64,000 nt of DNA from a virus. The translations under genes and the position numbers were made by a program. The first letter of the stretch is position 1. Each line of letters begins with the position of its first letter. Below are positions 6,001 to 63,419 of this stretch, one piece after another. The notes beneath the pieces were generated by a model that saw only the letters and a program-made list of their open reading frames with translations, made no database searches and had not been told where the DNA came from. The stretch is from positions 32,001-96,000 of the IMG/VR virus record IMGVR_UViG_3300046163_000090. One strand, 5' to 3'.

Positions 6001-9000
6001 TCAATTTTCTAACTTAGCTAAAACCTTAGGTTATGAAAATAATCCAGAAGAAGGTCCAGATTTAAATGAATTTAAACGAAGAATGTCTGAATCAATAGCT
6101 TCCGTAAATGCTCAAAGTTATTACTCTGGAATATTCGGGACTAACTTAAATCCGTTTAACAGTGGACAATTCACACAAGACGAACGAGAAACATCAAAAA
6201 CTTTCAAACAACAACTTCAACGTAGAGTTTCTGGAGCGAAAGAAGATGATGCAGCAAAAATTGCCAAAAAAAGCGAACAAGTAAATTTAATTGACATTGC
6301 CAATGAATCTAATAAAATGGCAAAACAAATATCCTTTGAGCAAGATAGAGCTTTGTCTTTAGCTAAACAACGATTAAAAATTGAGCAGAAAATTTTTGAA
6401 CAAGATCAAGCTAGATTAGGGTTGACTGATGAAATAGAAGATTTTCTTGGAGTGTTAAATGTTGATCAAAAAGTAGATAGGCAGTTTGATCGAAAAGAAA
6501 CAGCTATTGATCAAAAAGCAGAACAAGATATTAAATCCCTAAGAATTGATGCCAGGGCAGAATCTAAAAAATTCCTCGAAGATAAAATAAAAACAGATAG
6601 ACTTAATAATTCAATGTTTGACCCCATGACTGGAATCAATCAAGATAAAGTTGAAAAACTTCTACGAGAGATTGCAGATAATACAGATCCCAATTCAAAA
6701 GCAACATCAAAAGAAGAGATAGACTTTGCTAACAAATTCGAAAGGTCAGCTATAGAAGCAATGAAGGGCAAGGGCATCGATCCTTCGTCGTTTAATAAGG
6801 AGAAAGAATTAACCGAACAATTGAATAAGGCTATTGCGAAACGAAACGAAATAAATGCTAATTATAAAGATGATCAGTATATGAGGAAAAGGATGACTGA
6901 GCAAAACCCCGAAGCAAGTGAGGAAAATATTCAGCAGCTTTTTAATGAAAGGATACAAGCTAGAGCAGACAACCCAATCCTTAACAAAGTAACTCGGGCT
7001 CAAGAAGATTTTACCTCCCGATATACAAAAGGGTTCAATCAGGTTATGGCAGATTTCAGAGAAAGAAAACAAGTTTTGGCAAGGCCAGATGCTATCAGAA
7101 TATATGAACAGTCTAGTGACTACAAGGCTTTAGAGAAAGATATGCAGAACAAAATTCAGTCACTTGTAGAAATGTCAATATCTGGAAGCAATAACCAGAA
7201 TAATGAAGGCAAAGAGCAGACTAAGCGTCTTAGTTTTAGCAACACATTATACAATGAAGCTGAGAGAACGATATCAAGAGCTAATAAATCATTACTCAGT
7301 AAAACAGAGCTCGAGCTACAAAAAAGCCTAAAGATTCAAGAGAGAATAACTAAAGAAGCTCAAAGTCCAGCTCATTTAAATCAGCTTTACTCAGAAAATC
7401 CTAGAGCAAATCCTAAACATATTTCTAGTTTAGAAGAACAAATAAAAGATCTCTCGAAACCTCCTGCGGATACAACCTTGAGTAATAAGCCTGAAGGATA
7501 TAAAATATCGTCAACATATGATATTAAGGAGATGGACGAATACATACTCAAAACAAAAGAAAGATTAAAAAACTTGAACTTTAGTAATGGCAGCACTTTA
7601 TCTGGATCCACAAATCCTGATGCTGCCACTGATAACATTAATTCAATAAAGAACCAGGAAACAGAGGAAGCTATAGCTAGCATTCCGCCCGTTTCACCTA
7701 GTGAAAAAGCTTTAATGAATAATGCAAGCTCGCCAGAACGAATAGATATTCAAGCCAGAGCTAAAGAACAAGATACTGCTGACCGCATAAAGCTAGTAGG
7801 AGCGAATGCTCAAGCAAAAGGAGTTAAGGATGGCACTAGAATAGCCGAAAGTAAGCTAAAAGATAAAGCTAATTCCTTAACTAATAGAGAGCAAACTATA
7901 CTTCCAGATTTATTTCAACAGCAACAAATACAAGGAATTAAGTATGACTCTAGTCCATCAGTTTCCAATCCTGGAGTATTCGGCCAAACAGGTGACATGC
8001 CTTTAGTAAATCCGAACGATCCTATTTATCCAATTAATCAAGCAAGAATGGGTAAAGATTTAGCTCTGCCAGTTTCTACTCCAGATAAAATTGACGGAAA
8101 ATCTACTGAAGCTCGAGCGAAAAGTGAAGCTGAAATTAATAAGATTATGAGTGAAATTTTTATCCAGCTTAGAGATCACAAAAAGATAGCTGGTGGTGTT
8201 GTTGATAAAACTAAAGCTAGAAGTATGATTATTGATGGTCTACTTCAACTTGATGATGATATTGAAAGAGCAAAAGCTATTGAACTTATTAACACTTCAA
8301 ATGTAACAACTTATACTGATCATGAAATTGATTTAATAAAACAAGGATTGAATCAAAAACAAGCTACATTATCTGATCAAGAGCAAGCCGCTCGACAGGA
8401 AAAGAAAGCGAATAAAGATGATCTAGATCTCCAGAAACTCAGTGAATCATTCCGAAATAGAACAAACGCAGGCCTCCAAGAAACTCTCAGAATAAGAGGC
8501 GATATTAATAATTACGAAGAAAGAGTATCAGATGCCGTTCAACATAATCTTGGAGTTCAAAGCGGATTTGCGAAACTTTCATCCGAAATGCTTAATGTGC
8601 AAATAGGGAAACTCAGAAGCATGGAACGGGATGGCTCTCTAGCAAAACATTCCGAGAGTTTAGCAAATGAAGAGCTTGGCAGAGAAGAGAAGCAGCGAAT
8701 ATTGAGCACTGCTATGCTTAAAGCAAAAAATAATTTACTAGATGGCACGGAAAGAGGTGTCCAGATTGCTGGAGATAATTTTGATGCTCAAGAAGAAGAA
8801 CGCAGATTGACCTTAATCGCCGCTCAAAATAAATTAAAACTTTCAAATTTATCTGAAAAACTATACAAGCAGGCAGAAACTGAAAGCTCCATAAAAGTAG
8901 CTCAATTAGCTATTGAGAATAAACTACTAGCTCAAAAAACAAAATTATATGAGACTACAGAAGCTTTAACAAAAGAAGTTGAGGGCGAGTTAGAGCAGCA

Positions 9001-11080
9001 AAGGCGAGCAACTTATAATACAGGATTGCGCAATCAAGAAACTAATAGATTAAACGATCAAATGATTACAAATCCTAATGATCCATATTTTGGGATGACT
9101 GGCTTTCAAGCAAATGCTCAACAAAGAGCCCAAGATTTAAATACTGCCCAGACATCTCAAGTAAAAAATGCCAGAGCAGATTTCCAGCTTTACACAGGAA
9201 GAGGTAATGAATTAAGAGCTTCTGAAACTAGACTCCAGCTTTTGCAATTTCAAAAACAACAAAATATAGAAAACGGAAAAGGGAGAATGTTTTCTGATAC
9301 TATAGCAGTTAGAATCGCTGAAGTTAATGTTGAACTTGATCGATTTAATGAAACCTTAGCTAATACAGCATTTGATAGTGTAAAGCAAGGGTTCAGGGAT
9401 ATGATGGACACTATGGCCTCTGGCACAGCTGAAATGAGCGATGTATTCGGAGCTTTCTTGGGTTCAATCGTTTCAGCTATAAGTGATAAGTTAATAGATA
9501 GAGCCACAGCTCAAATTACCTCAGGTCTTTTTGATATAATTGGCATTGGAGAGCACAATAAAGGTGGGATAGTAGGATATAATCGTGGAGGTTATGCTAT
9601 GGGGGGTAAGTCGTCTCAGACTCCAGCAATGTTAACTGCTGGAGAATATGTTGTAAGAAAGAAAGTTGTAGATAGATTAGGCTCTGGAACTTTAGATAAA
9701 ATGAATAAAACTGGCTCATTAGATTCTTTATACCAAGAGCCTAGCACTAATAATTTTGATATCTCTACATCAAGTGGTGCTCCAGGTATGGCTTTCATGA
9801 ATGAAGGAGGATGGCTTAGTAGGCAATGGGATACAGCTAAGTCAACTTTCTCTCCCTTTACATCTTCCTCAAGTGATTCCAGTTGGGGTAGAGTTGCTAA
9901 AGGTAGCGGTATGCTTTTAGGCTCGTCCTATGGTGCCTATGAAGAGGCTCAGAAAAATGCTGCAGATAATGCTCCAGAAGCTCCACAAGCCCCTTCAACA
10001 GCAGTATTAAATACGACTTCAGATTTAAGTTTAGATCCATCTAGCAGCTCAATGTCTCCTTCGATGCGACAAGGTGGCAATAGTTATGCCCAACAATACG
10101 GAGATTATTTATTGAAAAAGTATGATTATGATGTTCAACAAAATAATCAAGCTGTTGAGGCAAAAGCTGGATTCTGGCAAGGCATGGCAAACCAATTCGG
10201 AGTTGCCCTCGGAGGTGCAGCAGTAGGTAAATTTACATCTTCCCTTGGAGCCGCCTGGGATACTAGGTGGGGAAGCGAAGCAACTGTAGAAAGATGGAAT
10301 AAACAAGGTATTCACAGTGCCGCAGATTTAGCTGAAAAAAAACCCAATAGTTTCGGTTACTACAAAAATGCGATGAATGACTACAGGGATAGAATGGGTT
10401 TTGATTCAATGTCAACCGATGATATAACCTCGGGCAAACCTGTTACTGGAGCCGACATGCTTAGGGCGAGCAATTCATCTCCATCTTGTTCAGGCGGAGT
10501 ATGCTCGACTTCTGATAATCTTGGTATGACAAAAAATAATGACTATAGGAGCACTTTTCACTCACCAGAGCAAATTGCTTTTTCTGATGCTTTATACGGT
10601 AGGGCAAACCTGGCTCCTGGCTTAGATATGAAAAACAGTAATTTTTTAAATAATGGCTATTTGAAGAAAAATAATGGTGGTATTATCGATTCTCCCATTC
10701 AGGGTTACAGCTCTGGCGGAAAAGTTTATGGTCCAGGAGGCATAGATAAAGTTGGCCCAGTTATGCTTGATAAAGGAGAATATGTGGTAAGAGCATCAAG
10801 CGTTAACAGTATCGAAAAACAATTTCCAGGATTTTTTGATCAACTTAATGCAATGAGGTTTAATCAAGGCGGTTCAGTCGGAGGCACTCAATCTAAGTCA
10901 GAGTCCTCCTCTCAGCAATCAGGTAATGTAACTGTTAATATCAATGTTGCCTCTGATGGTAGTTCTTCGAGCTCCTCAAGCGGTGGTGGTTCAGAACAGC
11001 AAATGGCTTCCAAGATTAAAGATGCTGTTGTTGGTATTATTGCTCAAGAAAAGAGGGTTGGAGGAATGCTGAGTGGCTAA
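2..11080 (+). CDS. Giant tape measure protein with N-terminal cargo-like domains (5' truncated by window edge)
   Basis: The frame is open from nt 2 (TAIEEIKERAGARQGGYIAGPIAT-M), so the true start is probably upstream of the window. It has Ala/Gly-rich hydrophobic segments (~4920-5340) and long Q/E/K coiled-coil stretches. C-terminal xxxGG motifs, PAMLTAGEYVV/PVMLDKGEYVV and the terminal VNINV...QEKRVGGMLSG are typical of lambda-H-like TMP ends. It lies directly upstream of the tail-tip genes. Confidence 0.88.
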   Translation, partial: TAIEEIKERAGARQGGYIAGPIATMSIPTVGRVVYNKNETIKQFDGMSQPAIMPPEKSKAGKEYKNDFSTHHGFDPYSHNSFSAGGFIPNYSFSTMNQNRLRDSKSRNRGVKNLNLEYFYPAAGQGGGTIFKMYKDIVRSADSGQPYTNILAGEIIGPRIPKMIVEGKKMLDKARLSGKKIPKMSIQGTIFPSMLTRKIDKFASDRKDGYIHPPVDYIPGEESEVRKYLKSLGADPESHDTVKLQNVYKGGYDTGFIPSFALKAGLIPGTNILRLPTAKMINETTASDFKGNKIKGWQTLEATVDNVQKHAQTYRNELSELKKVGVDLLQRKMYFSNQSQHIPVKDRKKIARQQKKMTSMKGFAGRNQHKITGNSQEDALFKSSLENKGYYPTWTGAYTAEGRQKGKGDENFKVDFFAPGRKPIESKYGKYTAPNLIAKSIRLYSDSYIEEFLSRSGRSDLSENMRKGKLKDSTNMLTSLGYKDVNADMVLRAGLFNGYLPDRKNNVNQNLRTVKELEGRETVSGYSAMSSSEMFDEFSSNSDRNFPGLEKMSKDGIWNNKNKKSRKKESFYHRGIVPNFSKNWAQGKSKSSDKNQGRKRSPQAEIIKAIRATLSKRGIKRSAMAEDKILFAAEKYISATKSRDYPGGYVNVNGNKINLNEITLALKKHGDYHPSFDDTVEFDGSKNHKDNLMFEELEQKRLPNFARYGMSSLRSPIMFKNGNEGSFGRSYLATTSKSGKLFLLKDGHKPFSDYMKKMGKPEPKLKEGAVGGREGYWVNSGADDVKTWAELPNTKLLASQEKRRAEAQAIENDRKARLNPGVFDPVLSNGKIFFSDGSSGSVNPDSLSKKMGKEYKHVEVDKRALHNYAKENKITKKSGGTESTHLGNAFNKILNLPRSEFLKMKHIVRPRMQTDGEKDLERKMNAPSKPIKWDVRDNQKGKKQYNLKADDTTFRQFSTFLLDQGVPKRSVDNIHKALANKQAHLDKIVKEARDKRSMGRGRGVFFDAAKKQESFEKGFSIPTDGLFIKNLNQMVRDFNKTVYNSDGFIPNFMFGNEAPEQSTLYPTKKDLKIKQYNNALKDFLEHQDNIKNKAWSMADFAGYINNDELSYPNLGDTAAGHSVNILKGKSLIYHSLAKSSKPLLEEFVTGLGRKTNAQSIGAAYEKLIEDNFGVQSLGHNAPIDYKNLGQKVNDFKEVRDPSGNAINEPKYTLLNSTKPNSPVEAAGGTGHTKQHMGRKGPRFAAQNPTGLNDIKATILSTLKGGPTKTKEPLTIGTERIVELTQKGQSDEQNLSGYDPKFKAFQIISEPSDTAFKKTKNILRSMKGTKQVKDKSAISSRVKAQKGNNFNINLFGGYGKSAHLVGSQNMIKLEQEIEQEINKQYKNQSSKNKANFSKQVKNASQNTFEIKYDKDILDLATHPITKSHGHIPNFSAWNPLTKNTQSIAKQGGLATNKFDLAKIIQNSPFKDLLRRHYHWNNFPEKHKKRLNEWLRSQGYTNRTLQGWGVLSRNSGSIAKGATEILTSSGHIPNFANPLGDAISREKEALRERGSAADIYIDQDNRLKNPKNPAGLLVANTRDEPKSGSQGVNRAISMGMDPKTHGASSGVVPNFASSTKGSSSSNKSANEIKDTGKAMKEAGDASGDLMMKMMGLTTLTYALDGAMGEASETASGFQKAMGVVNAAIMGASQAAMLAMVVPKGTSAKGRRKLNDGFEKAKNAYGSKNQSTGSRLKAGLGGAGMMAKGAGGMLMGALGPLGMAAAALIPIFSALKEQFGLFKSNIENIGDSLNAARKQQDLLNQATSSLSSEQQNAKSIIELESKGRNLSSEQMNELHKLRIQEIQNQGKLQGSLESVSANFDLSEKQLKLLSGSYADQQKLLKQLESAQVRYIASLELRKTRAENREKLGDTDAGLADFLNIFQLGDFQKTLALGKESADNIARGEADTFYETYMSGKINEGNAQEVNKQISGIVSLNLSKLRGGDAFDYEDFARDDEFQSQFSNLAKTLGYENNPEEGPDLNEFKRRMSESIASVNAQSYYSGIFGTNLNPFNSGQFTQDERETSKTFKQQLQRRVSGAKEDDAAKIAKKSEQVNLIDIANESNKMAKQISFEQDRALSLAKQRLKIEQKIFEQDQARLGLTDEIEDFLGVLNVDQKVDRQFDRKETAIDQKAEQDIKSLRIDARAESKKFLEDKIKTDRLNNSMFDPMTGINQDKVEKLLREIADNTDPNSKATSKEEIDFANKFERSAIEAMKGKGIDPSSFNKEKELTEQLNKAIAKRNEINANYKDDQYMRKRMTEQNPEASEENIQQLFNERIQARADNPILNKVTRAQEDFTSRYTKGFNQVMADFRERKQVLARPDAIRIYEQSSDYKALEKDMQNKIQSLVEMSISGSNNQNNEGKEQTKRLSFSNTLYNEAERTISRANKSLLSKTELELQKSLKIQERITKEAQSPAHLNQLYSENPRANPKHISSLEEQIKDLSKPPADTTLSNKPEGYKISSTYDIKEMDEYILKTKERLKNLNFSNGSTLSGSTNPDAATDNINSIKNQETEEAIASIPPVSPSEKALMNNASSPERIDIQARAKEQDTADRIKLVGANAQAKGVKDGTRIAESKLKDKANSLTNREQTILPDLFQQQQIQGIKYDSSPSVSNPGVFGQTGDMPLVNPNDPIYPINQARMGKDLALPVSTPDKIDGKSTEARAKSEAEINKIMSEIFIQLRDHKKIAGGVVDKTKARSMIIDGLLQLDDDIERAKAIELINTSNVTTYTDHEIDLIKQGLNQKQATLSDQEQAARQEKKANKDDLDLQKLSESFRNRTNAGLQETLRIRGDINNYEERVSDAVQHNLGVQSGFAKLSSEMLNVQIGKLRSMERDGSLAKHSESLANEELGREEKQRILSTAMLKAKNNLLDGTERGVQIAGDNFDAQEEERRLTLIAAQNKLKLSNLSEKLYKQAETESSIKVAQLAIENKLLAQKTKLYETTEALTKEVEGELEQQRRATYNTGLRNQETNRLNDQMITNPNDPYFGMTGFQANAQQRAQDLNTAQTSQVKNARADFQLYTGRGNELRASETRLQLLQFQKQQNIENGKGRMFSDTIAVRIAEVNVELDRFNETLANTAFDSVKQGFRDMMDTMASGTAEMSDVFGAFLGSIVSAISDKLIDRATAQITSGLFDIIGIGEHNKGGIVGYNRGGYAMGGKSSQTPAMLTAGEYVVRKKVVDRLGSGTLDKMNKTGSLDSLYQEPSTNNFDISTSSGAPGMAFMNEGGWLSRQWDTAKSTFSPFTSSSSDSSWGRVAKGSGMLLGSSYGAYEEAQKNAADNAPEAPQAPSTAVLNTTSDLSLDPSSSSMSPSMRQGGNSYAQQYGDYLLKKYDYDVQQNNQAVEAKAGFWQGMANQFGVALGGAAVGKFTSSLGAAWDTRWGSEATVERWNKQGIHSAADLAEKKPNSFGYYKNAMNDYRDRMGFDSMSTDDITSGKPVTGADMLRASNSSPSCSGGVCSTSDNLGMTKNNDYRSTFHSPEQIAFSDALYGRANLAPGLDMKNSNFLNNGYLKKNNGGIIDSPIQGYSSGGKVYGPGGIDKVGPVMLDKGEYVVRASSVNSIEKQFPGFFDQLNAMRFNQGGSVGGTQSKSESSSQQSGNVTVNINVASDGSSSSSSSGGGSEQQMASKIKDAVVGIIAQEKRVGGMLSG

Positions 11081-59646: not shown

Positions 59647-59713
59647 TAAGTTGCTACCTATCAGCGACTTAGGGAAGCCTGGCTGCCATAAGTACTTGGT
59701 AATCAATGAGTTG
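59647..59713 (+). repeat. 67-bp tripartite palindromic element, copy 1
   Basis: TAAGTTGCTACCTATCAGCGACTTA + GGGAAGCCTGGCTGCCA + TAAGTACTTGGTAATCAATGAGTTG. Confidence 0.9.
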
Positions 59714-59725
59714 TACAACAACTGA

Positions 59726-59914
59726 GGCCCGCCCGTAGTAGAACGATTCTATTTGTCGACTACGGTACCAGGCCCGCCCGTAGTAGAACGATTCTATTTG
59801 TCGACTACGGTACCAGGCCCGCCCGTAGTAGAACGATTCTATTTGTCGACTACGGTACCAGGCCCGCCCGTAGTAGAACGATTCTATTTGTCGACTACGG
59901 TACCAGGCCCGCCC
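59726..59914 (+). repeat. 45-bp tandem array A (4 perfect copies plus a partial)
   Basis: Unit GGCCCGCCCGTAGTAGAACGATTCTATTTGTCGACTACGGTACCA. Confidence 0.97.
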
Positions 59915-59984
59915 TGGGTATGGTATTGTTATTTGAGGCCCGCAAAAAAACTTTGTTTTTGTGAATAACTTAAGTGCTTTTTTC

Positions 59985-60013
59985 TTGCAATTAGCTTATG
60001 CCTATGCTAGGTT
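59985..60013 (+). promoter_or_regulatory. Sigma70-like early promoter
   Basis: TTGCAA-17nt-TAGGTT (TG extended), ATG 8 nt downstream. Confidence 0.75.
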
Positions 60014-60021
60014 ATACTTAT

Positions 60022-60195
60022 ATGACAAACGAAATTCAAACACATCTCACAAAATTAGGAATCGACAAGTTCATCGAAGACAATGAACTTCAGCTTGTGG
60101 TCTGCCTTCATGCTGATCATATGCTTTGGGAATGCCCAGGTGGTCACCTGTGGAATATTCAAATGATAAAAGATGCCGCAGATAAAAGTTTATAA
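60022..60195 (+). CDS. Hypothetical protein (start re-called)
   Basis: MTNEIQTHL..., with the ATG following the promoter. Confidence 0.6.
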   Translation: MTNEIQTHLTKLGIDKFIEDNELQLVVCLHADHMLWECPGGHLWNIQMIKDAADKSL

Positions 60196-60210
60196 TTAGC
60201 CTTTTTTTGC

Positions 60211-60239
60211 TTGCAATAAAACCATTAAACTGCTAACTT
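60211..60239 (+). promoter_or_regulatory. Sigma70-like early promoter
   Basis: TTGCAA-17nt-TAACTT, ATG 8 nt downstream. Confidence 0.75.
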
Positions 60240-60247
60240 ATACTTAT

Positions 60248-60448
60248 ATGACAGATAATGACTCACTCGCCCGTACTGCTCACGCCTTCGGTATCACTGA
60301 TGTTGAATTCCAAGCTCAACAAAAAGAGCTTGCGCGCCTCGCTCGCCTCGAAAAGATAATCGCTGACATCAGGAATAGTGACGAATCTGCCGAGATGCCC
60401 GAAGTGCATCGCAATCATGAAGAACCAAGCTTTGACTTATTCAACTAA
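60248..60448 (+). CDS. Hypothetical protein
   Basis: 66-aa ORF after its promoter. Confidence 0.7.
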   Translation: MTDNDSLARTAHAFGITDVEFQAQQKELARLARLEKIIADIRNSDESAEMPEVHRNHEEPSFDLFN

Positions 60449-60470
60449 TAACAATAAACATTATAACACT

Positions 60471-60656
60471 ATGAAAGACACCCAACACAAAGGAACACTA
60501 GCAAAAGTTAATATTGTCGATGCAAAGACAGGCGAAACCGTTCAAGAGAATGTGATGATGCAGGTTGAAGAATGCAAAACAATAGACCAAATAAATAAAG
60601 AGTTGGCAATGTTTTTCTTGCCAAGACGCTTTGAATTGGTAGAATGGGTAAAATAG
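60471..60656 (+). CDS. Hypothetical protein (start re-called at MKDTQ)
   Basis: The re-called start removes the overlap with the preceding gene. Confidence 0.6.
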   Translation: MKDTQHKGTLAKVNIVDAKTGETVQENVMMQVEECKTIDQINKELAMFFLPRRFELVEWVK

Positions 60657-60668
60657 AAAGGAATTAAA

Positions 60669-60896
60669 ATGTCAGATAACACATACAATGGATGGGCAAA
60701 TTGGGCAACTTGGAACGTCGCCCTTTGGTTAGGAAACGATGAAGGCTTGTATAGGCTTTCCCGCAGGTTCGTGAGTTACAAGGATCTTGCTGACGCTCTT
60801 GAGGAAGTGGGCACCCTCAGCACTCCTGACGGAGCAAGCTACAAGGATGAAGATCTTGACACCTATGCGCTTGATGAATGGCTTATGGACGAATAA
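60669..60896 (+). CDS. Phage hypothetical protein (YNGW.N..TW.V.LW type)
   Basis: YNGWANWATWNVALWLGNDEGLY motif, with AAAGGA SD upstream. Confidence 0.75.
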   Translation: MSDNTYNGWANWATWNVALWLGNDEGLYRLSRRFVSYKDLADALEEVGTLSTPDGASYKDEDLDTYALDEWLMDE

Positions 60897-60900
60897 TCCA

Positions 60901-60967
60901 TAAGTCGTTGATTATTAGGGGTTTAGGCGAGCCAGGCTGCCATAAGTACTTGGTAATCAGTGAATTA
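60901..60967 (+). repeat. 67-bp tripartite palindromic element, copy 2
   Basis: TAAGTCGTTGATTATTAGGGGTTTA + GGCGAGCCAGGCTGCCA + TAAGTACTTGGTAATCAGTGAATTA. Confidence 0.9.
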
Positions 60968-60979
60968 TAAAACTCATAA

Positions 60980-61144
60980 GGCCCGCCCGTAGTATAACTG
61001 CGCTATTTGTCGACTACGGCACCAGGCCCGCCCGTAGTATAACTGCGCTATTTGTCGACTACGGCACCAGGCCCGCCCGTAGTATAACTGCGCTATTTGT
61101 CGACTACGGCACCAGGCCCGCCCGTAGTATAACTGCGCTATTTG
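60980..61144 (+). repeat. 45-bp tandem array B (3 perfect copies plus 30 bp)
   Basis: Unit GGCCCGCCCGTAGTATAACTGCGCTATTTGTCGACTACGGCACCA. Confidence 0.97.
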
Positions 61145-61171
61145 AGGTCTATAAAAAAAACGAAAAAAAGC

Positions 61172-61200
61172 TTGCAATTAGTTTCTGACTTTGCTAGATT
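61172..61200 (+). promoter_or_regulatory. Sigma70-like early promoter
   Basis: TTGCAA-17nt-TAGATT, ATG 6 nt downstream. Confidence 0.75.
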
Positions 61201-61206
61201 ACTTAT

Positions 61207-61398
61207 ATGACTAAAAAAGAAATGCTCACCGAAATTACAACACTTCGCAAAGCTCTTCAAAGCTCTGCTGATTTCACCCCTACTGATCGCATAGTAATCC
61301 GTAACGCGATTGGCGATCTTCAAGACAAGATTGATCTCCTCGACTTTCAAGAGTACGAGGATATTGATTATGGATACCATGCCCAGTACGACTTATAA
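61207..61398 (+). CDS. Hypothetical protein
   Basis: 63-aa helical ORF after its promoter. Confidence 0.7.
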   Translation: MTKKEMLTEITTLRKALQSSADFTPTDRIVIRNAIGDLQDKIDLLDFQEYEDIDYGYHAQYDL

Positions 61399-61403
61399 TA
61401 AAC

Positions 61404-61607
61404 ATGAAATACCTACTTACTAAATCAGACGACGCACATATAATCATTGCACAAGTCGATCACTCATTCAAGAAAAGATCGCCACATGAGTTCTTCGTTA
61501 GTCGAGACTTTTTAAATGTCAATGTTAAAAATGGAAATTTTACTGACATTACCGACAGGGTAGATTGGGATGGCAAAGTTTGGATACTAACAGAAGATAT
61601 GACATAA
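61404..61607 (+). CDS. Hypothetical protein
   Basis: 67 aa; its stop codon is the first TAA of repeat element 3. Confidence 0.65.
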   Translation: MKYLLTKSDDAHIIIAQVDHSFKKRSPHEFFVSRDFLNVNVKNGNFTDITDRVDWDGKVWILTEDMT

Positions 61608-61671
61608 GTCTTTGATAATCAAGGGCTTAGGCCCGCCAGGCCGCCCTAAGTCGTTGACATTCAGCTACTTA
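61605..61671 (+). repeat. 67-bp tripartite palindromic element, copy 3
   Basis: TAAGTCTTTGATAATCAAGGGCTTA + GGCCCGCCAGGCCGCCC + TAAGTCGTTGACATTCAGCTACTTA. Confidence 0.9.
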
Positions 61672-61726
61672 CAACAAAAATACATAGAGACACCATATGT
61701 CTCTGGGTATGTGTTATACTGTAGGT

Positions 61727-62053
61727 ATGATTACAATAGAACACATTGACGACCAAACTTTCAACGCCACCGTAGAGTGGGACATGTACCTCATCGAGGT
61801 CGAGGGTACAGTATGGACTGAGCAGGAAGATAACCTGTGGGGTGACCAGGTCGAATCAGTTTCGACCATCGCCCATTTTGACGCAGTGACCGATATGAAG
61901 GTGTCAAGCAAAATGACTGGTGATGAAGTTGAGGTGCTAAACCTAGACTTCGCCGAGCTAGTCGTTCACCAGCTCAAGGAAGCTATCTGTGAGGAGGTCT
62001 ACTCAGAGGAGTGTCAAGTAGATTATTCGCCATACTATCATGATATGGCGTAA
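61727..62053 (+). CDS. Acidic hypothetical protein (start re-called at MITIEH)
   Basis: Extended -10 TGTTATACT (61712-61720) 6 nt upstream; the stop is the first TAA of element 4. Confidence 0.7.
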   Translation: MITIEHIDDQTFNATVEWDMYLIEVEGTVWTEQEDNLWGDQVESVSTIAHFDAVTDMKVSSKMTGDEVEVLNLDFAELVVHQLKEAICEEVYSEECQVDYSPYYHDMA

Positions 62054-62117
62054 GTCGTTGGCTGCCAGTAACTTAGGGCAGCCAGGCTGCCATAAGCCAC
62101 TAATAATAAGCAACTTA
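62051..62117 (+). repeat. 67-bp tripartite palindromic element, copy 4
   Basis: TAAGTCGTTGGCTGCCAGTAACTTA + GGGCAGCCAGGCTGCCA + TAAGCCACTAATAATAAGCAACTTA. Confidence 0.9.
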
Positions 62118-62170
62118 TGACATTTCCTTCTTGGCTCGCGGAGCTGATCCCTTTTAGGTTTGGCTATTTG

Positions 62171-62356
62171 CTATTTGACCTTTTCGAGCTTAATTGGGCG
62201 ATCAACAAAATATATGTAATCCTGTTTTACTCTTCTGCCCGCGAGCTTAGCTAATTGTAAAGCCTCGCTTTCTCTTCTAACTTCGTCAACCATTTTGCCA
62301 AAAGCAAACACTTGAAACCATTCTTTGAAATTTGGATTTTTTCTTACACTTATCAT
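62171..62356 (-). CDS. Hypothetical protein
   Basis: 61-aa ORF, last of a minus-strand run. Confidence 0.65.
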   Translation of the reverse strand: MISVRKNPNFKEWFQVFAFGKMVDEVRRESEALQLAKLAGRRVKQDYIYFVDRPIKLEKVK

Positions 62357-62357
62357 T

Positions 62358-62408
62358 TTATTCTGCCTCCCATATCATATAAAATACAAACAACCAATTC
62401 ATAAACAT
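62358..62408 (-). CDS. Possible 16-aa hydrophobic microprotein (not in ORF track)
   Basis: MFMNWLFVFYMIWEAE* fills the gap between two co-oriented genes. Confidence 0.35.
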   Translation of the reverse strand: MFMNWLFVFYMIWEAE

Positions 62409-62415
62409 TAATAAT

Positions 62416-62679
62416 TCAACTATCATCGTAGACTCCTTTCATTTCATCAGATAGACCAATCTCTTTATCTTCTTCGTCTATCTCTTCGGCTCTGTCTTTG
62501 AGTAAATACTGAGCTTCGTCTGATACATCTTCCTTTTCCACTTTTCTCAAGCCATTGTTGAGTACAAAAGTCTCAGCTTGTAACTCTCCGACTAATTCCA
62601 TAATCTCAGAGTTGGGTCGAAAGTTTTTGGACTCACGATGGGCGTTTGCGATGATTGCGATTCTTTCTTGTTCTGTCAT
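62416..62679 (-). CDS. Acidic hypothetical protein
   Basis: -10-like TACATT 6 nt before the ATG. Confidence 0.68.
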   Translation of the reverse strand: MTEQERIAIIANAHRESKNFRPNSEIMELVGELQAETFVLNNGLRKVEKEDVSDEAQYLLKDRAEEIDEEDKEIGLSDEMKGVYDDS

Positions 62680-62693
62680 AATAGTAATGTAGT

Positions 62694-62891
62694 TTAGTTT
62701 GAGTATAATGTCAAGTCTTCGTTTTCTAATTGTATACGAACATACGGCTCAGAGTATTCATCCACTTCCATGTCTGCATAACTACAATCAATAAACTCAC
62801 CAATATCTTGCAAGCCATTGTTGTTTGCAAAAGTGTTAACCTTAAACGAGCAAATATCATTGCCGTAGTAATCTTCAATAACTATCTTCAT
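62694..62891 (-). CDS. Acidic hypothetical protein
   Basis: -10-like TATATT 6 nt before the ATG. Confidence 0.65.
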   Translation of the reverse strand: MKIVIEDYYGNDICSFKVNTFANNNGLQDIGEFIDCSYADMEVDEYSEPYVRIQLENEDLTLYSN

Positions 62892-62915
62892 GTTTTTAAT
62901 ATAGTTTAGTTGTGG

Positions 62916-63287
62916 TTAGTAGTCAAGCCCTAAATCTCTTTTAAATTCTGCTTTGTCTTCGATTAGCTCATCAACCCAAACACTTCCTTCGACTTGAGCT
63001 TTTGCCATTAAGATAGATACTTGAGCAGGAGATTGCCAACCGACAACATCGTCAGAAGGAGAAAGTGGAATCATTCCATTTTTGTCGAAAATTGCAACTT
63101 CGTATAAATCTTCTTCCACGCTTCCATATAATCCTCTTCTGCCGTCTTTACCTGCAACAACAGAAATTTCTAGTCCGTTACCAAAGTCAAGCCTTGCTTG
63201 GACTGCGTCATCAGAACCACGATGTGGCTTAAAATCAAGATTGTCAAAGTTTAATAATTCGTTCATTGGTATATTGTTGTTAATCAT
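62916..63287 (-). CDS. Phage hypothetical protein
   Basis: F.NG..ISVV.G....YG.....YEVA......DDV.GW pattern, preceded by its own promoter. Confidence 0.75.
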   Translation of the reverse strand: MINNNIPMNELLNFDNLDFKPHRGSDDAVQARLDFGNGLEISVVAGKDGRRGLYGSVEEDLYEVAIFDKNGMIPLSPSDDVVGWQSPAQVSILMAKAQVEGSVWVDELIEDKAEFKRDLGLDY

Positions 63288-63293
63288 ATAAAC

Positions 63294-63322
63294 ACATTAA
63301 AACTTTTTGCCAATTAATGCAA
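63294..63322 (-). promoter_or_regulatory. Sigma70-like early promoter
   Basis: On the - strand, TTGCAT-17nt-TAATGT with ATG 6 nt downstream. Confidence 0.72.
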
Positions 63323-63352
63323 GAAAAAAGTGAAGTTTTTTACGTTTTGTTG

Positions 63353-63419
63353 TAAGTTGTTGGTTGTTAAGCATTTGTGGCAGCCTGGCTGCCGTAAGTC
63401 GTTGAGGCCCAGCGACTTA
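63353..63419 (-). repeat. 67-bp tripartite palindromic element, copy 5 (inverted)
   Basis: Reverse complement: TAAGTCGCTGGGCCTCAACGACTTA + CGGCAGCCAGGCTGCCA + CAAATGCTTAACAACCAACAACTTA. Confidence 0.9.

What the first reader, a model, noticed from the sequence alone, without database searches (positions are those of the whole stretch)
59647..63419. Five 67-bp tripartite palindromic elements delimit self-contained gene cassettes (possible integron-like shuffling system in a phage)
Seen: five elements at 59647, 60901, 61605, 62051 and 63353 (inverted) share an exact 25+17+25 geometry. Two imperfect palindromic boxes (consensus TAAGTnnTTG-N5-CArnnACTTA) flank a GC-rich palindromic linker (GGCAGCCWGGCTGCC). 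Lengths are invariant while the sequence drifts. Each element lies just 3' of a small gene: in copies 3 and 4 the gene's TAA is the element's first three bases, copies 2 and 5 are 4 and 2 nt from the stop, and copy 1 is 29 nt away. The element flips with gene orientation. The 0.4-1.2 kb blocks between elements carry their own promoters. Established: paired inverted arms around a short core are the layout of tyrosine-recombinase sites (dif 11-6-11, loxP 13-8-13), integron attC sites abut cassette stop codons, and T4-type PeSL repeats mediate modular shuffling of early genes. Inference: these are recombination or protein-binding sites for gain, loss or inversion of host-takeover cassettes. No recombinase is visible in the window.
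Basis: partly seen in the sequence, partly recalled or inferred. Interest (0 to 1): 0.88.

Follow-up and report, generated by a model that had tools for sequence, protein, structure and literature searches.

The report
Gene-shuffling boundary repeats in marine phage
A widespread group of uncultured marine phages separates its small early-gene units with a conserved 67-bp repeat made of two protein-binding-type palindromes around a GC-rich spacer, and related phages have reshuffled those units exactly at these repeats, most likely by ordinary recombination and not by an integron-like enzyme.

Summary
The five elements are real. They belong to ten 25+17+25 copies confined to 10 kb of a 117-kb viral contig. 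The family recurs 5-15 times per locus in 48 of 58 related sequences.

The shuffling claim holds.
- Gene adjacency across an element is kept in 182 of 1191 comparisons, against 2932 of 4873 without one.
- One unit is duplicated element-to-element.
- Metagenome contigs show joints at elements.

The integron-like mechanism is not supported.
- Pfam models for tyrosine, serine and Y1 recombinases find nothing in this genome or in five relatives, three rated complete.
- Homology tracts end all over the element.
- The box halves do not covary.
- Units carry their own promoters.

New reading: each 25-bp box is a palindromic form of the IHF consensus WATCARNNNNTTR. 468 of 520 boxes are within one mismatch of it. 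The elements lie upstream of sigma-70-type early promoters.

Best explanation: architectural or regulatory binding sites that also serve as crossover points, analogous to T4-type PeSLs. This is a new variant of a known kind.

Earlier notes of this scan cover this same genome only.

The parts
59647..59713 (.). Element e1: box 59647-59671, GC linker 59672-59688, box 59689-59713. It lies 29 nt after the stop of the 102-aa gene.
   Evidence: two exact WATCARNNNNTTR half-sites
60901..60967 (.). Element e2, 4 nt after the stop of the 75-aa DUF7249 gene
   Evidence: A metagenome contig replaces e2 plus the following array with 36 nt.
61605..61671 (.). Element e3. Its first TAA is the stop codon of the 67-aa gene.
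62051..62117 (.). Element e4, at the convergence of + and - strand genes. Its first TAA is the stop codon of the duplicated gene.
63353..63419 (.). Element e5. It lies 2 nt from the stop of the 59-aa minus-strand gene and upstream of the minus-strand promoter at 63294-63322.
   Evidence: promoter read from the sequence
59725..59914 (.). 45-bp tandem array, 4.2 identical copies, 11 nt after e1. Each unit is a GC-rich stretch plus an imperfect palindrome.
   Evidence: No such array was found in the related loci.
60979..61144 (.). Second 45-bp tandem array, 3.7 identical copies, 11 nt after e2. Its units differ from those of array 1 in an internal stretch.
61667..62092 (+). Duplicated unit, copy A. 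It runs from the last 5 nt of e3 through the promoter, the gene, box 1 of e4 and the linker of e4. Copy B lies beyond the window at genome 96,703-97,128. The copies differ at 2 positions.
61697..62053 (+). 118-aa ORF, probably 108 aa from the ATG at 61727, with no Pfam family. In relatives it occurs as a single-gene unit between two elements, with 10 different neighbour pairs in 14 occurrences.
59985..60013 (+). Sigma-70-type promoter-like site: TTGCAA, 17 nt, TAGGTT. The ATG follows 8 nt later at 60022, so the leader is absent or nearly so.
   Evidence: read; inferred, not mapped
63294..63322 (-). Sigma-70-type promoter-like site: TTGCAT, 17 nt, TAATGT. The ATG follows 6 nt later. The -35 hexamer lies 30 nt from the edge of e5.
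   Evidence: read. The same layout is seen at e6, e8, e9 and e10. 110 of 260 elements in relatives have a T-run/-35/-10 pattern, most often 23 nt from an edge.

Best explanation
**What it is**
- The element is a double-stranded-DNA boundary element that works through protein binding, not through RNA folding.
- Each 25-bp box is a symmetrical version of the binding consensus of IHF-type (DNABII) DNA-bending proteins: YAA-N4-YTGAT-W-ATCAR-N4-TTR.
- Two such sites flank a GC-rich spacer. The spacer length is fixed within a phage and differs between phages.

**Where it sits**
- The elements lie between transcription units of the early region.
- They typically follow the stop codon or terminator of one unit.
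- They lie about 20-30 bp upstream of the T-run and -35 box of the next sigma-70-type promoter.

**How it works (inferred)**
1. A host or phage bending protein shapes or insulates the early promoters.
2. The elements are the only extended sequence shared by all unit boundaries. General (homologous) recombination between elements, within a genome or between co-infecting relatives, therefore swaps, duplicates, deletes and inverts whole units.
3. This is the way PeSL cassettes act in T4-type phages.

**Shown:** the repeat family, its positions, the consensus match, the lack of pairing covariation, and the shuffling at elements.

**Inferred:** the identity of the binding protein, the effect on transcription and the recombination pathway.
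For: **Family and position**
- There are ten copies in one 10-kb stretch of the genome.
- A profile finds 442 sites in 48 of 58 related sequences.
- Elements sit upstream of promoters. 110 of 260 have a T-run/-35/-10 pattern, with modal distance 23 nt.
- Canonical hairpin-plus-T-run terminators stand beside e7 and e8. None of the ten elements is terminator-like by the scan.

**Protein site, not a stem**
- A2, A3, T9, A17, T23 and T24 are 100% conserved in 260 elements, while positions 6, 7, 19 and 20 vary.
- Those variable positions do not covary in any pairing scheme. For example, pair 6-20 inside box 1 is paired in 0.45 of elements against 0.45 after shuffling.

**IHF-type consensus**
- The consensus is in print: listing; passages.
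- There are 7 exact hits in the 670 bp of elements against 0.13 expected. The rest of the genome is at chance, 24 hits against about 23 expected.
- 291 of 520 boxes have a perfect half-site and 468 of 520 have at most 1 mismatch.
- The degenerate positions match too: W at position 13, R at positions 18 and 25.

**Shuffling at elements**
- Adjacency is kept in 182 of 1191 comparisons across elements against 2932 of 4873 without one. Per distinct family pair the means are 0.13 and 0.33, p = 0.001.
- Against element-free gaps of at least 100 nt, adjacency is kept in 0.15-0.19 of comparisons across elements and 0.44-0.53 across those gaps.
- 43 distinct element pairs share one flank and have an unlike other flank. 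Only 5 pairs share both flanks.
- A 426-bp unit is duplicated with both ends inside elements.
- Linker length is homogenised within genomes: 205 of 243 elements.
- Metagenome contigs show joints at or in e2, e3, e5 and e6.

**General, not site-specific, recombination**
- Tract ends are spread: box 1, 17; linker, 9; box 2, 6; up to 10 nt past the element, 10; beyond that, 1 (n = 43).
- No recombinase was found.
Against: - No protein was shown to bind. No DNABII gene (PF00216) is present in this genome or in five relatives, so a host protein would be needed, and the host is unknown.
- A manA RNA and a Kyanoviridae-family gene hint at a cyanobacterial host. By recollection such a host would have HU but no classical IHF.
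- G000's own boxes are rather degenerate: only 7 of 40 half-sites are perfect.
- Positions 21-22 (A, C) are conserved beyond the IHF consensus. The A-tract that accompanies many IHF sites is absent.
- Centre-to-centre spacing of the boxes is 42, 47 or 53 bp in different phages. No single helical phasing is therefore kept.
- Only 110 of 260 elements have a recognisable promoter beside them.
- Gene-level indels also occur in this region without any element, for example joints 10324>10482 and 10123>10807.
- Contigs tend to break or misjoin at repeats. Several joints have short sides of 21-30 nt, so the read evidence is weak.
- The adjacency contrast is confounded by operon structure.
Confidence: 0.5

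Rival explanations
1. Dedicated site-specific cassette exchange, integron- or attP-like. A recombinase cuts and rejoins in the GC-rich linker. It could be unrecognised, host-encoded, or encoded in a missing part of the genome. The flanking IHF-type sites would serve as accessory bending sites. By recollection, the lambda attP core is flanked by IHF sites in this way.
For: - Elements delimit units that are reordered, duplicated and inverted.
- The geometry is exact within a genome.
- The linker is an imperfect GC palindrome. Two of the three clear mosaic junctions inside G000 fall at or in the linker: e1/e2 at its centre and e4/e7 at its right end.
- A single-gene unit appears with 10 different neighbour pairs in 14 occurrences.
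- G000 is only 84% complete.
Against: - No tyrosine, serine or Y1 recombinase model matches in G000 or in five relatives, three rated 100% complete. The only hit is an 11.9-bit, sub-threshold one with an internal stop.
- The ends of the duplicated tract lie at non-equivalent positions: box 2 position about 21 against the end of the linker.
- Only 9 of 43 tract ends fall in the linker.
- Linker sequence and length are not conserved across the clade.
- The 3-bp centre of the boxes is shorter than the 6-8 bp crossover regions of tyrosine-recombinase sites (recalled).
- Units carry promoters and often several genes.
Confidence: 0.13
2. Operator pairs for a phage-encoded dimeric regulator that is not a DNABII protein. 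For example, a repressor that shuts off early promoters or blocks read-through between units, in the manner of mycobacteriophage stoperators. Shuffling would be a by-product of sequence repetition.
For: - The boxes are 25-bp dyads with invariant positions and no covariation.
- The distance to promoters is fixed.
- Boxes overlap or abut stop codons.
- A conserved 141-aa protein with a sigma-70 region-4 helix-turn-helix is encoded 1.4 kb from e10.
- Stoperators are repressor sites spread over a phage genome that stop elongation (passages, and the abstract in the listing).
- In a subgroup of relatives only one half-box (TCAACGACTTA) survives, again upstream of promoters.
Against: - No helix-turn-helix family was found in 20 small proteins of the region.
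- The sigma-like protein is more simply a late sigma factor.
- The same box pattern is frequent in bacterial genomes of several phyla. This argues for a widely shared host-type reader and against a clade-specific phage protein.
- The match to the IHF consensus covers all nine specified positions.
Confidence: 0.17
3. RNA-level element. The three hairpins, or one long hairpin, in the transcript would terminate transcription, serve as an RNase III-type processing site, or protect the 3' end of the upstream mRNA.
For: - Many copies directly follow stop codons.
- In G000 the GC linker folds well: -10 kcal/mol against -3 for shuffles for the perfect copies.
- G000 copies show more G-T wobble on the + strand, 31 against 13.
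- On the ten copies 82.9% of cells pair, against 80.8% after shuffling; 21 of 500 shuffles reach the observed value.
- In bacteria the same palindrome sits 3' of tRNA genes inside longer hairpins and covaries there.
Against: - No covariation in 260 phage elements for any pairing scheme, nor in 154 further viral boxes.
- Across the clade linkers fold hardly better than shuffles, -7.6 against -6.3 kcal/mol, with no strand bias.
- No T-run follows the elements, and 0 of 10 are called terminator-like. True terminators stand next to e7 and e8.
- e6, and 19 of 266 elements in relatives, lie between divergent genes where no transcript should cross.
- The wobble-favoured strand in G000 is the + strand even where genes run on the - strand.
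Confidence: 0.1
4. Selfish REP/BIME- or MITE-like repeat that spreads by its own transposition, driven by an unknown enzyme, with no benefit to the phage.
For: - The element itself shows presence/absence polymorphism. A contig lacks e2 and its array.
- Box-plus-linker units can form tandem arrays, with period 40 in L091.
- The architecture mirrors BIME-1, which is two palindromes plus a linker carrying an IHF site (passages).
- Similar boxes are repeated many times in single bacterial MAGs.
Against: - No Y1 (RAYT-type) transposase was found.
- Elements are confined to unit boundaries of one region at fixed distances from promoters. They are conserved at 100% at six positions across relatives whose large-terminase proteins are only 70-100% identical to this genome's.
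- No target-site duplications were looked for or seen.
Confidence: 0.08

Closest known systems
PeSL (promoter-early stem-loop) mobile regulatory cassettes of T4-type phages. Arbiol et al. 2010, PMC2839356: abstract and sections 13 and 16 read. Comeau et al. 2014, PMC4122927: abstract only.
   Same: - Dispersed intergenic repeats in a hyperplastic early region full of small orphan genes.
- A composite of upstream stop codon, GC-rich stem-loop-capable sequence, AT-rich stretch and strong sigma-70-type promoter.
- Indels and replacements between relatives have the repeats at their junctions.
- The proposed mechanism is homologous recombination between repeats, which moves genes together with their own regulatory signals.
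   Different: - The phage here is unrelated: it is tape-measure-bearing and its large terminase is only about 25% identical to that of any isolate.
- The conserved part is not the promoter plus a generic stem-loop. It is a rigid tripartite unit of two 25-bp dyads with an IHF-type consensus around a GC spacer, separate from the promoter.
- The stem-loop shows no evidence of terminator function here.
- PeSL mini-circles were shown physically. Here only contig joints exist.
- The PeSL papers' supplementary figures could not be seen.
BIME-1 / REP elements of enterobacteria with an IHF site in the linker (Ton-Hoang et al. 2012, PMC3333891: passages read)
   Same: - Mosaic intergenic repeats built of palindromes plus a linker.
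- Located at ends of transcription units.
- Include an IHF-type site.
- Linker length is variable.
- Credited with insulation, termination and recombination roles.
   Different: - The order is inverted. Here two IHF-type sites flank one GC palindrome. BIME-1 has two GC-rich REPs flanking one IHF site.
- The boxes carry no GTAG-type signature.
- No RAYT transposase was found.
- These elements are in a phage genome, ten copies in 10 kb.
IHF binding sites, consensus WATCARNNNNTTR (passages in PMC9820253 and bioRxiv 10.1101/382655)
   Same: - All nine specified consensus positions, the two R and one W degeneracies, and the free N4 block are reproduced in the box profile.
- The dyad centre falls on W. 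Kinks 9 bp apart would then fall at steps 8/9 and 17/18. This placement is inferred.
   Different: - Classical sites are asymmetric and often carry an A-tract in the other half. These are perfect dyads with two overlapping inverted half-sites.
- A dyad suits a homodimeric DNABII protein, or IHF bound in either orientation.
- Binding was not tested and the host is unknown.
Integron attC sites (features recalled, no paper read)
   Same: - Imperfect palindromes at the 3' ends of genes, some fused to stop codons.
- They delimit units found in different orders.
- Length varies while the architecture is kept.
   Different: - No integron integrase was found.
- There is no structure-preserving covariation.
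- Units have their own promoters, mixed orientations and often several genes.
- Junctions are not at one position.
Mycobacteriophage stoperators (PMC9283540: abstract in the listing, passages)
   Same: Many copies of a protein-binding site spread between genes of a phage, often at gene ends, and acting on transcription.
   Different: - Stoperators are 13-bp asymmetric sites. They are bound by a monomeric repressor, are orientation-dependent and are found across the whole genome of temperate phages.
- The elements here are dyads in pairs, confined to one region, and no repressor is known.

Membership tests
Integron attC / integron cassette array | An integron-type tyrosine recombinase encoded beside the array | tested here: not met
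   PF00589 gives no match in G000 or in five related records, three rated 100% complete. Controls matched in 14 of 14 genomes.
Integron attC / integron cassette array | Folded single-strand site: pairing conserved while sequence varies (recalled definition) | tested here: not met
   No covariation between paired positions in 260 elements, for intra-box or cross-box pairing.
Integron attC / integron cassette array | Cassettes are mostly single promoterless genes in one orientation (recalled definition) | tested here: not met
   Units hold 0-12 ORFs, with a mode of 3. Promoter-like sites lie beside 110 of 260 elements. Orientations are mixed.
Integron attC / integron cassette array | Exchange at one fixed position of the site | tested here: not met
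   The ends of 43 shared tracts are spread over box 1 (17), linker (9), box 2 (6) and past the element (11). The resolution is limited by sequence divergence.
PeSL-type mobile regulatory cassette (by function, not by descent) | Repeat combines a sigma-70-type early promoter, with an AT-rich upstream region, and a stem-loop-capable GC sequence | tested here: inconclusive
   The layout is seen at e1-e3, e5, e6 and e8-e10 by reading and at 110 of 260 elements by pattern. The remaining 150 of 260 have no recognisable promoter within 75 nt.
PeSL-type mobile regulatory cassette (by function, not by descent) | Concentrated in a hyperplastic region of small orphan genes | tested here: met
   All ten copies lie in 10 kb of 117 kb. 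Of 30 small proteins of the region scanned, most have no Pfam family.
PeSL-type mobile regulatory cassette (by function, not by descent) | Differences between relatives (indels, replacements) have the repeat at their junctions | tested here: met
PeSL-type mobile regulatory cassette (by function, not by descent) | Stem-loop acts as a terminator; excised mini-circles exist | not testable with these tools
   Only assembled contigs were available. No element is terminator-like by the pattern scan.
IHF-type (DNABII) binding site | 13-bp consensus WATCARNNNNTTR | tested here: met
   7 exact hits in the 670 bp of elements against 0.13 expected. 291 of 520 boxes have a perfect half-site and 468 of 520 have at most 1 mismatch.
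IHF-type (DNABII) binding site | A-tract in the other half of many sites | tested here: not met
   The other half is the inverted consensus, not an A-tract.
IHF-type (DNABII) binding site | Bound and bent by an IHF/HU-family protein available during infection | not testable with these tools
   No PF00216 gene in G000 or in five relatives. The host is unknown.
REP/BIME | Associated Y1 (RAYT) transposase and a GTAG-flanked GC-rich palindrome | tested here: not met
   PF01797 is absent. The boxes are AT-rich dyads without GTAG.
Intrinsic (Rho-independent) terminator | GC-rich hairpin directly followed by a T-run | tested here: not met
   0 of 10 elements are called by the scan. Two canonical terminators lie next to e7 and e8.

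The most novel reading that the evidence does not exclude
The early region of these lytic marine phages is a true cassette-exchange system, a phage 'integron'. The paired, IHF-bent dyads around the GC core would be cut and rejoined precisely, either by a host recombinase or by a phage enzyme of an unrecognised family. Whole promoter-gene units would then excise as circles and reinsert at any other element.
Probability: 0.1. Interest if true: 0.85.

Novelty: new variant of a known kind. Interest (0 to 1): 0.6.

Why it matters
- Modular shuffling of phage early genes, which include host-takeover and anti-defence candidates, is usually inferred from mosaic genomes without a visible mechanism. Here a widespread marine phage clade has a sharply defined, easily recognised sequence at nearly every breakpoint. 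577 contigs in IMG/VR hold a relative of its terminase, and near-identical DNA occurs in seawater metagenomes of many studies.
- Each transcription unit is thereby marked as an exchangeable part. Recombination rates can be measured in metagenomes.
- The finding extends the PeSL idea beyond T4-type phages.
- The reading of the boxes as symmetrical IHF-type sites gives a concrete biochemical test. It also links phage promoter architecture, nucleoid-protein binding and genome plasticity.
- The same dyad in bacterial genomes, notably 3' of tRNA-Gln genes, suggests a wider and undescribed motif.

Tried and rejected
**Searches that found nothing or little**
- Blastn of the 5-kb region against isolated phages gave no match.
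- A 91-nt stretch of L091 holding an element gave only one 23-nt chance match at E = 10. No cultured phage in that collection carries the element.
- The large terminase against isolates matched at 26% identity or less, so no host could be assigned.
- The 3668-aa protein gave nothing against PDB sequences and Pfam.

**Structure tests**
- Three-hairpin structure on the ten copies: barely above shuffles.
- Whole-element long hairpin: 17-22 Watson-Crick pairs of 32.
- Linker folding across the clade: -7.6 against -6.3 kcal/mol.
- I rejected an N4-type single-strand hairpin-promoter reading. Ordinary sigma-70-type promoters sit beside the elements, and no virion RNA polymerase was recognised.

**Polarity**
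- G000 copies all favour the + strand.
- In relatives the profile's preferred strand is mixed, 213 against 182.
- When elements are oriented by their promoter, the two half-sites are nearly symmetric.
- I therefore draw no conclusion from polarity.

**Other lines**
- A phylogenetic profile to find a cognate protein was not informative. The 13 element-poor loci share most families with the element-rich loci. Six of them carry a derived single-box element that the profile missed.
- Literature: searches for the motif strings and for cyanophage/siphovirus intergenic repeats found no description of this element. On those two searches alone I say it is not in print in the held library.
- The taxon spread of bacterial hits cannot be used.
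- Parts without contig cover, and the small-share RNA runs, were not interpreted. No RNA run was laid, so expression is untested.
- Structure prediction, complex prediction, the protein atlas and the large protein searches were not used.

Full report
**1. The observation**

- The GC palindrome GGCAGCCWGGCTGCC with up to 3 mismatches occurs 5 times in the 64-kb window, all at the stated sites. Shuffles give 0.31, and 0 of 100 reach 5.
- The window is part of a single 117,477-bp viral contig of 35.6% G+C.
- Scanning the whole contig gives nine cores, and reading gives a tenth with a degenerate core.
- All ten copies are exactly 25+17+25 nt. All lie between genome positions 91,647 and 101,349 (window 59,647 to about 5.3 kb past its end).
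- They align without gaps at 79% mean column identity with 21 invariant columns.

- Copy 5 is not demonstrably inverted. All ten copies align and score best on the + strand. G-T wobble positions number 31 on + against 13 on -.
- Copy 6 is not 3' of any gene. It lies between two divergent promoters.

**2. Surroundings**

- The region is a run of small genes. Most have no Pfam family.
- Genes run on the + strand up to e4 and mostly on the - strand beyond it.
- Next to most elements I read sigma-70-type promoter-like sites with the start codon 6-8 nt after the -10 box. These are inferred, not mapped.
- On the - strand, e5, e6, e8 and e9 are followed by a shared spacer (CAACAAAATGCAATTTAA-like), a T-run and the -35 box.
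- Canonical hairpin-plus-T-run terminators stand directly beside e7 and e8. None of the ten elements is terminator-like in the pattern scan.
- Two perfect 45-bp tandem arrays follow e1 and e2.

**3. Relatives**

- No isolated phage matches the region. The large terminase is at most 26% identical to that of any isolate.
- In IMG/VR, 577 of 579 candidate stretches encode a relative of the terminase.
- 55 loci encode a relative of the DUF932 gene that lies between e7 and e8.
- A profile of the ten copies finds 442 sites in 48 of 58 sequences, 5-15 per locus. The 58 are G000, 55 DUF932 loci and 2 pattern hits, and a few are overlapping pieces of one contig.
- Near-identical DNA is held by 16 seawater or freshwater metagenome runs at half the sampled words or more. 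The 20 holding runs come from 17 studies, and one may be the source sample.
- The boxes are the conserved part. The GC-rich linker varies in sequence and is 15-17, 21-23, 25 or 28 nt long.
- Within a locus the linker length is nearly uniform: 205 of 243 elements have their locus's modal length. That is concerted evolution, a lineage-specific constraint, or both.

**4. Structure or protein site?**

- I parsed 260 of 308 distinct elements; those with indels in a box were dropped.
- In these, A2, A3, T9, A17, T23 and T24 of both boxes are 100% conserved, while positions 6, 7, 19 and 20 vary freely.
- The variable positions do not covary, whether a box pairs with itself or box 1 pairs with box 2. 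Observed pairing equals shuffled pairing. The one weak exception is box 2 position 6 with box 1 position 20, paired in 0.55 against 0.45.
- On the ten G000 copies, 82.9% of cells pair against 80.8% in shuffles.
- Linkers fold hardly better than shuffled linkers, -7.6 against -6.3 kcal/mol, with no strand bias.
- I take this as evidence against a selected RNA or single-strand DNA stem. It favours half-site recognition on double-stranded DNA.

**5. What the boxes look like**

- The right half of a box, positions 13-25, reads W-A-T-C-A-R-N4-T-T-R. The left half is its reverse complement.
- This is the published consensus of integration host factor (IHF). I recalled it first, then confirmed it in a listing and in passages of PMC9820253 and bioRxiv 10.1101/382655.
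- G000 has 31 exact matches on both strands against about 23 expected from composition. Seven of the 31 lie inside the 670 bp of elements, where 0.13 is expected.
- Across the clade, 337 of 1040 half-sites are perfect. 291 of 520 boxes have a perfect half, and 468 of 520 have a half with at most one mismatch.
- The degenerate positions agree too:
  - position 13 is A or T in 0.83-0.90 of boxes;
  - position 18 is A (0.65) or G (0.35);
  - position 25 is A or G in 0.96-1.0 of boxes.
- The passages say IHF kinks DNA at two steps 9 bp apart, with WATCAR between the kinks and TTR in the flank.
- With the dyad on W, the kinks would fall at steps 8/9 and 17/18 of the box. This placement is my inference.
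- A perfect dyad fits a homodimeric DNABII protein, or IHF bound in either orientation.
- Points against:
  - no A-tract is present;
  - positions 21-22 are conserved beyond the consensus;
  - G000's own boxes are degenerate;
  - no DNABII gene is found in G000 or in five relatives;
  - the host is unknown.
- A manA RNA and a Kyanoviridae-family domain hint at a cyanobacterial host, which by recollection would have HU and no classical IHF.

**6. Shuffling**

I called ORFs in all loci and clustered them into families. The maps show recurrent units bounded by elements, standing in different orders in different phages.

- Examples are the unit holding the DUF932 gene, a three-gene unit holding the GP88-family gene, and single-gene units such as the 118-aa ORF.
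- The analysis used 36 non-redundant loci of the 43 that have at least 4 elements.
- Adjacency of two families is kept in another locus in 262 of 1418 comparisons when an element lies between them, against 3870 of 6521 when none does.
- Against element-free gaps of at least 100 nt, the kept fractions are 0.15-0.19 across elements and 0.44-0.53 across those gaps.
- Inside the element-bearing region alone the counts are 182 of 1191 against 2932 of 4873. Per distinct family pair the means are 0.13 and 0.33, Mann-Whitney p = 0.001.
- The 118-aa gene unit has 10 different neighbour pairs in 14 occurrences.
- 6 of 40 common families occur in both orientations.
- The DUF7249 gene abuts the left edge of e2 on the + strand here, and the right edge of an element on the - strand in L005.
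- Within G000 a 426-bp unit is present twice with 2 differences. It runs from the last 5 nt of e3 or e6 through the promoter, gene, box 1 and linker of e4 or e7.

**7. Reads**

Only assembled contigs were available, so depth, RNA ends and absence cannot be read. Coordinates below are L001 coordinates (genome minus 90,000).

- 5340>6628: from 13 nt before e5 to 13 nt before e6. Seen in two runs, but the short side is only 23 nt.
- 2896>3191, with 36 other letters: e2 and its array are replaced by a short promoter-bearing spacer.
- 2947>3164: starts in e2.
- 6650>3669: joins e6 to e3. It is ambiguous because of the duplication.
- 3184>2008: a promoter-to-promoter tandem-duplication joint, seen in two runs.
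- A loose end at 6650 shows an e6 variant with a different box half and linker.
- Joints without any element also occur: 10324>10482, 10123>10807 and 9742>10559.
- The region is therefore plastic in nature. Elements and promoters are frequent breakpoints but not the only ones.

**8. Site-specific or general recombination?**

- Pfam models for tyrosine recombinases, serine recombinases and Y1 transposases find nothing in G000, which is 84% complete.
- They also find nothing over threshold in five element-bearing relatives, three rated 100% complete. The only hit is 11.9 bits with an internal stop.
- I found 58 distinct pairs of elements that share a 50-nt flank at 85% identity or more.
  - In 43 pairs the other flank is unlike (under 50% identical).
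  - In 5 pairs it is alike (80% or more).
  - In 10 pairs it is intermediate.
- In the 43 unlike pairs the shared tract ends as follows:

| Where the shared tract ends | Pairs |
|---|---|
| Box 1 | 17 |
| Linker | 9 |
| Box 2 | 6 |
| Within 10 nt past the element | 10 |
| Further on | 1 |

- The two ends of the internal duplication are not at equivalent positions of the element.
- This pattern fits homologous or homeologous exchange and gene conversion across the repeat. It does not fit one fixed crossover.
- Host recombinases and unknown enzyme families are not excluded.

**9. Variant and wider occurrences**

- Six closely related loci (L099-L103, L122) have the same gene families but no full element.
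- In the three of them that I scanned (L099, L100, L122) there are eight copies each of a derived form. It keeps one half-box (TCAACGACTTA) behind a conserved ATTATATGA, again 10-30 nt upstream of promoters and all in one orientation.
- In L091, box-plus-linker units form a tandem array of period 40.
- It is repeated many times in single MAGs.
- 11 of 130 bacterial boxes lie within 60 nt 3' of a tRNA gene, 8 of them tRNA-Gln. About 0.4% of the sequence lies that close to a tRNA end.
- Bacterial boxes covary at positions 6-20 (0.45 against 0.26). 154 further viral boxes do not (0.34 against 0.40).
- The same dyad may thus serve as a hairpin in some bacterial settings and as a pure protein site in the phages. 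I did not follow this up.

**10. Comparison with the known**

- The closest functional analogue is the PeSL of T4-type phages. PeSLs are conserved promoter-plus-stem-loop cassettes in hyperplastic regions that mediate modular shuffling by homologous recombination and form mini-circles. I read the abstract and sections 13 and 16 of PMC2839356 and the abstract of PMC4122927. Their supplements were not seen.
- The present element differs in three ways: an unrelated phage, a rigid tripartite unit with paired IHF-type dyads that is separate from the promoter, and no evidence that the GC part terminates transcription.
- BIME-1 elements of enterobacteria are a structural mirror image: two REP palindromes around a linker with an IHF site (passages).
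- Integron attC membership fails on all four features tested.
- Two literature searches found no description of this element.

**11. Verdict**

- The cassette-shuffling inference is supported. The integron-like mechanism is not.
- Best reading, confidence 0.5: paired IHF-type architectural sites at unit boundaries upstream of early promoters, which double as crossover points for general recombination.
- I class it as a new variant of a known kind, with interest 0.6.

Noticed in passing
L001 11910-12120 (-), genome about 101,910-102,120, 5.9 kb past the window's end; conserved in L005 about 7990-8230: A manA RNA (Rfam RF01745) scores 81.7 bits against a gathering score of 55.2, E = 1e-19, over the full-length model. 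A strong promoter-like site lies upstream and a terminator-like hairpin downstream. By recollection this motif is known from marine metagenomes, cyanophages and Photobacterium, so it may hint at the host.
   Followed up: partly
window 59985-60024, 61712-61729, 63285-63322; L001 6573-6612 and others: Promoter-proximal genes of the early region start 6-8 nt after the -10 box, so their mRNAs would have no leader or almost none. Downstream genes in the same units have Shine-Dalgarno-like sequences.
   Followed up: no
window 59725-59914 and 60979-61144: Two 45-bp tandem arrays are 100% identical within each array but differ between arrays in an internal stretch. Each unit is a GC-rich piece plus an imperfect palindrome. 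None of the related loci has such an array. One metagenome contig lacks array 2 together with e2.
   Followed up: partly
L001 11350-11480 (genome about 101,350-101,480), next to e10; similar in L005 7045-7200: A 130-150-bp very AT-rich non-coding stretch with short direct repeats lies at the outer end of the element region. It is a candidate replication origin or a genome-end-related sequence.
   Followed up: no
Genome-contig loci L261-L380, e.g. L266 4139, L273 594, L286 139: The 25-bp dyad TAAGTnnTTGAnnnTCAAnnACTTA is frequent in bacterial genomes. 11 of 130 instances sit within 60 nt 3' of a tRNA gene (8 tRNA-Gln), often inside a longer hairpin followed by T-rich sequence. One WOR-3 MAG and one Microscillaceae MAG carry it on many contigs.
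   Followed up: partly
L099, L100, L122 (scanned); sister loci L101-L103 (not scanned): A subgroup of relatives with the same gene families has a derived single-box element (ATTATATGA-N3-TCAACGACTTA). There are eight copies per scanned locus, all in one orientation, upstream of promoters. Gene order within this subgroup is conserved, but its members are close relatives of each other.
   Followed up: partly
paper PMC5349666, terminator table (passages): In the T4-like Stenotrophomonas phage DLP6, two predicted terminators are directly preceded by the same 11-mer as the conserved half-box (TCAACGACTTA), followed by a GC hairpin. This may be coincidence.
   Followed up: no
L001 12727-13152 (-), genome about 102,727-103,152: A 141-aa protein has a sigma-70 region-4 domain (E = 2.7e-10). 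It is encoded just outside the element region and conserved in most relatives. It is a candidate late sigma factor or DNA-binding regulator.
   Followed up: no
window 74-11080: A 3668-aa ORF has no Pfam family and no PDB sequence relative.
   Followed up: no
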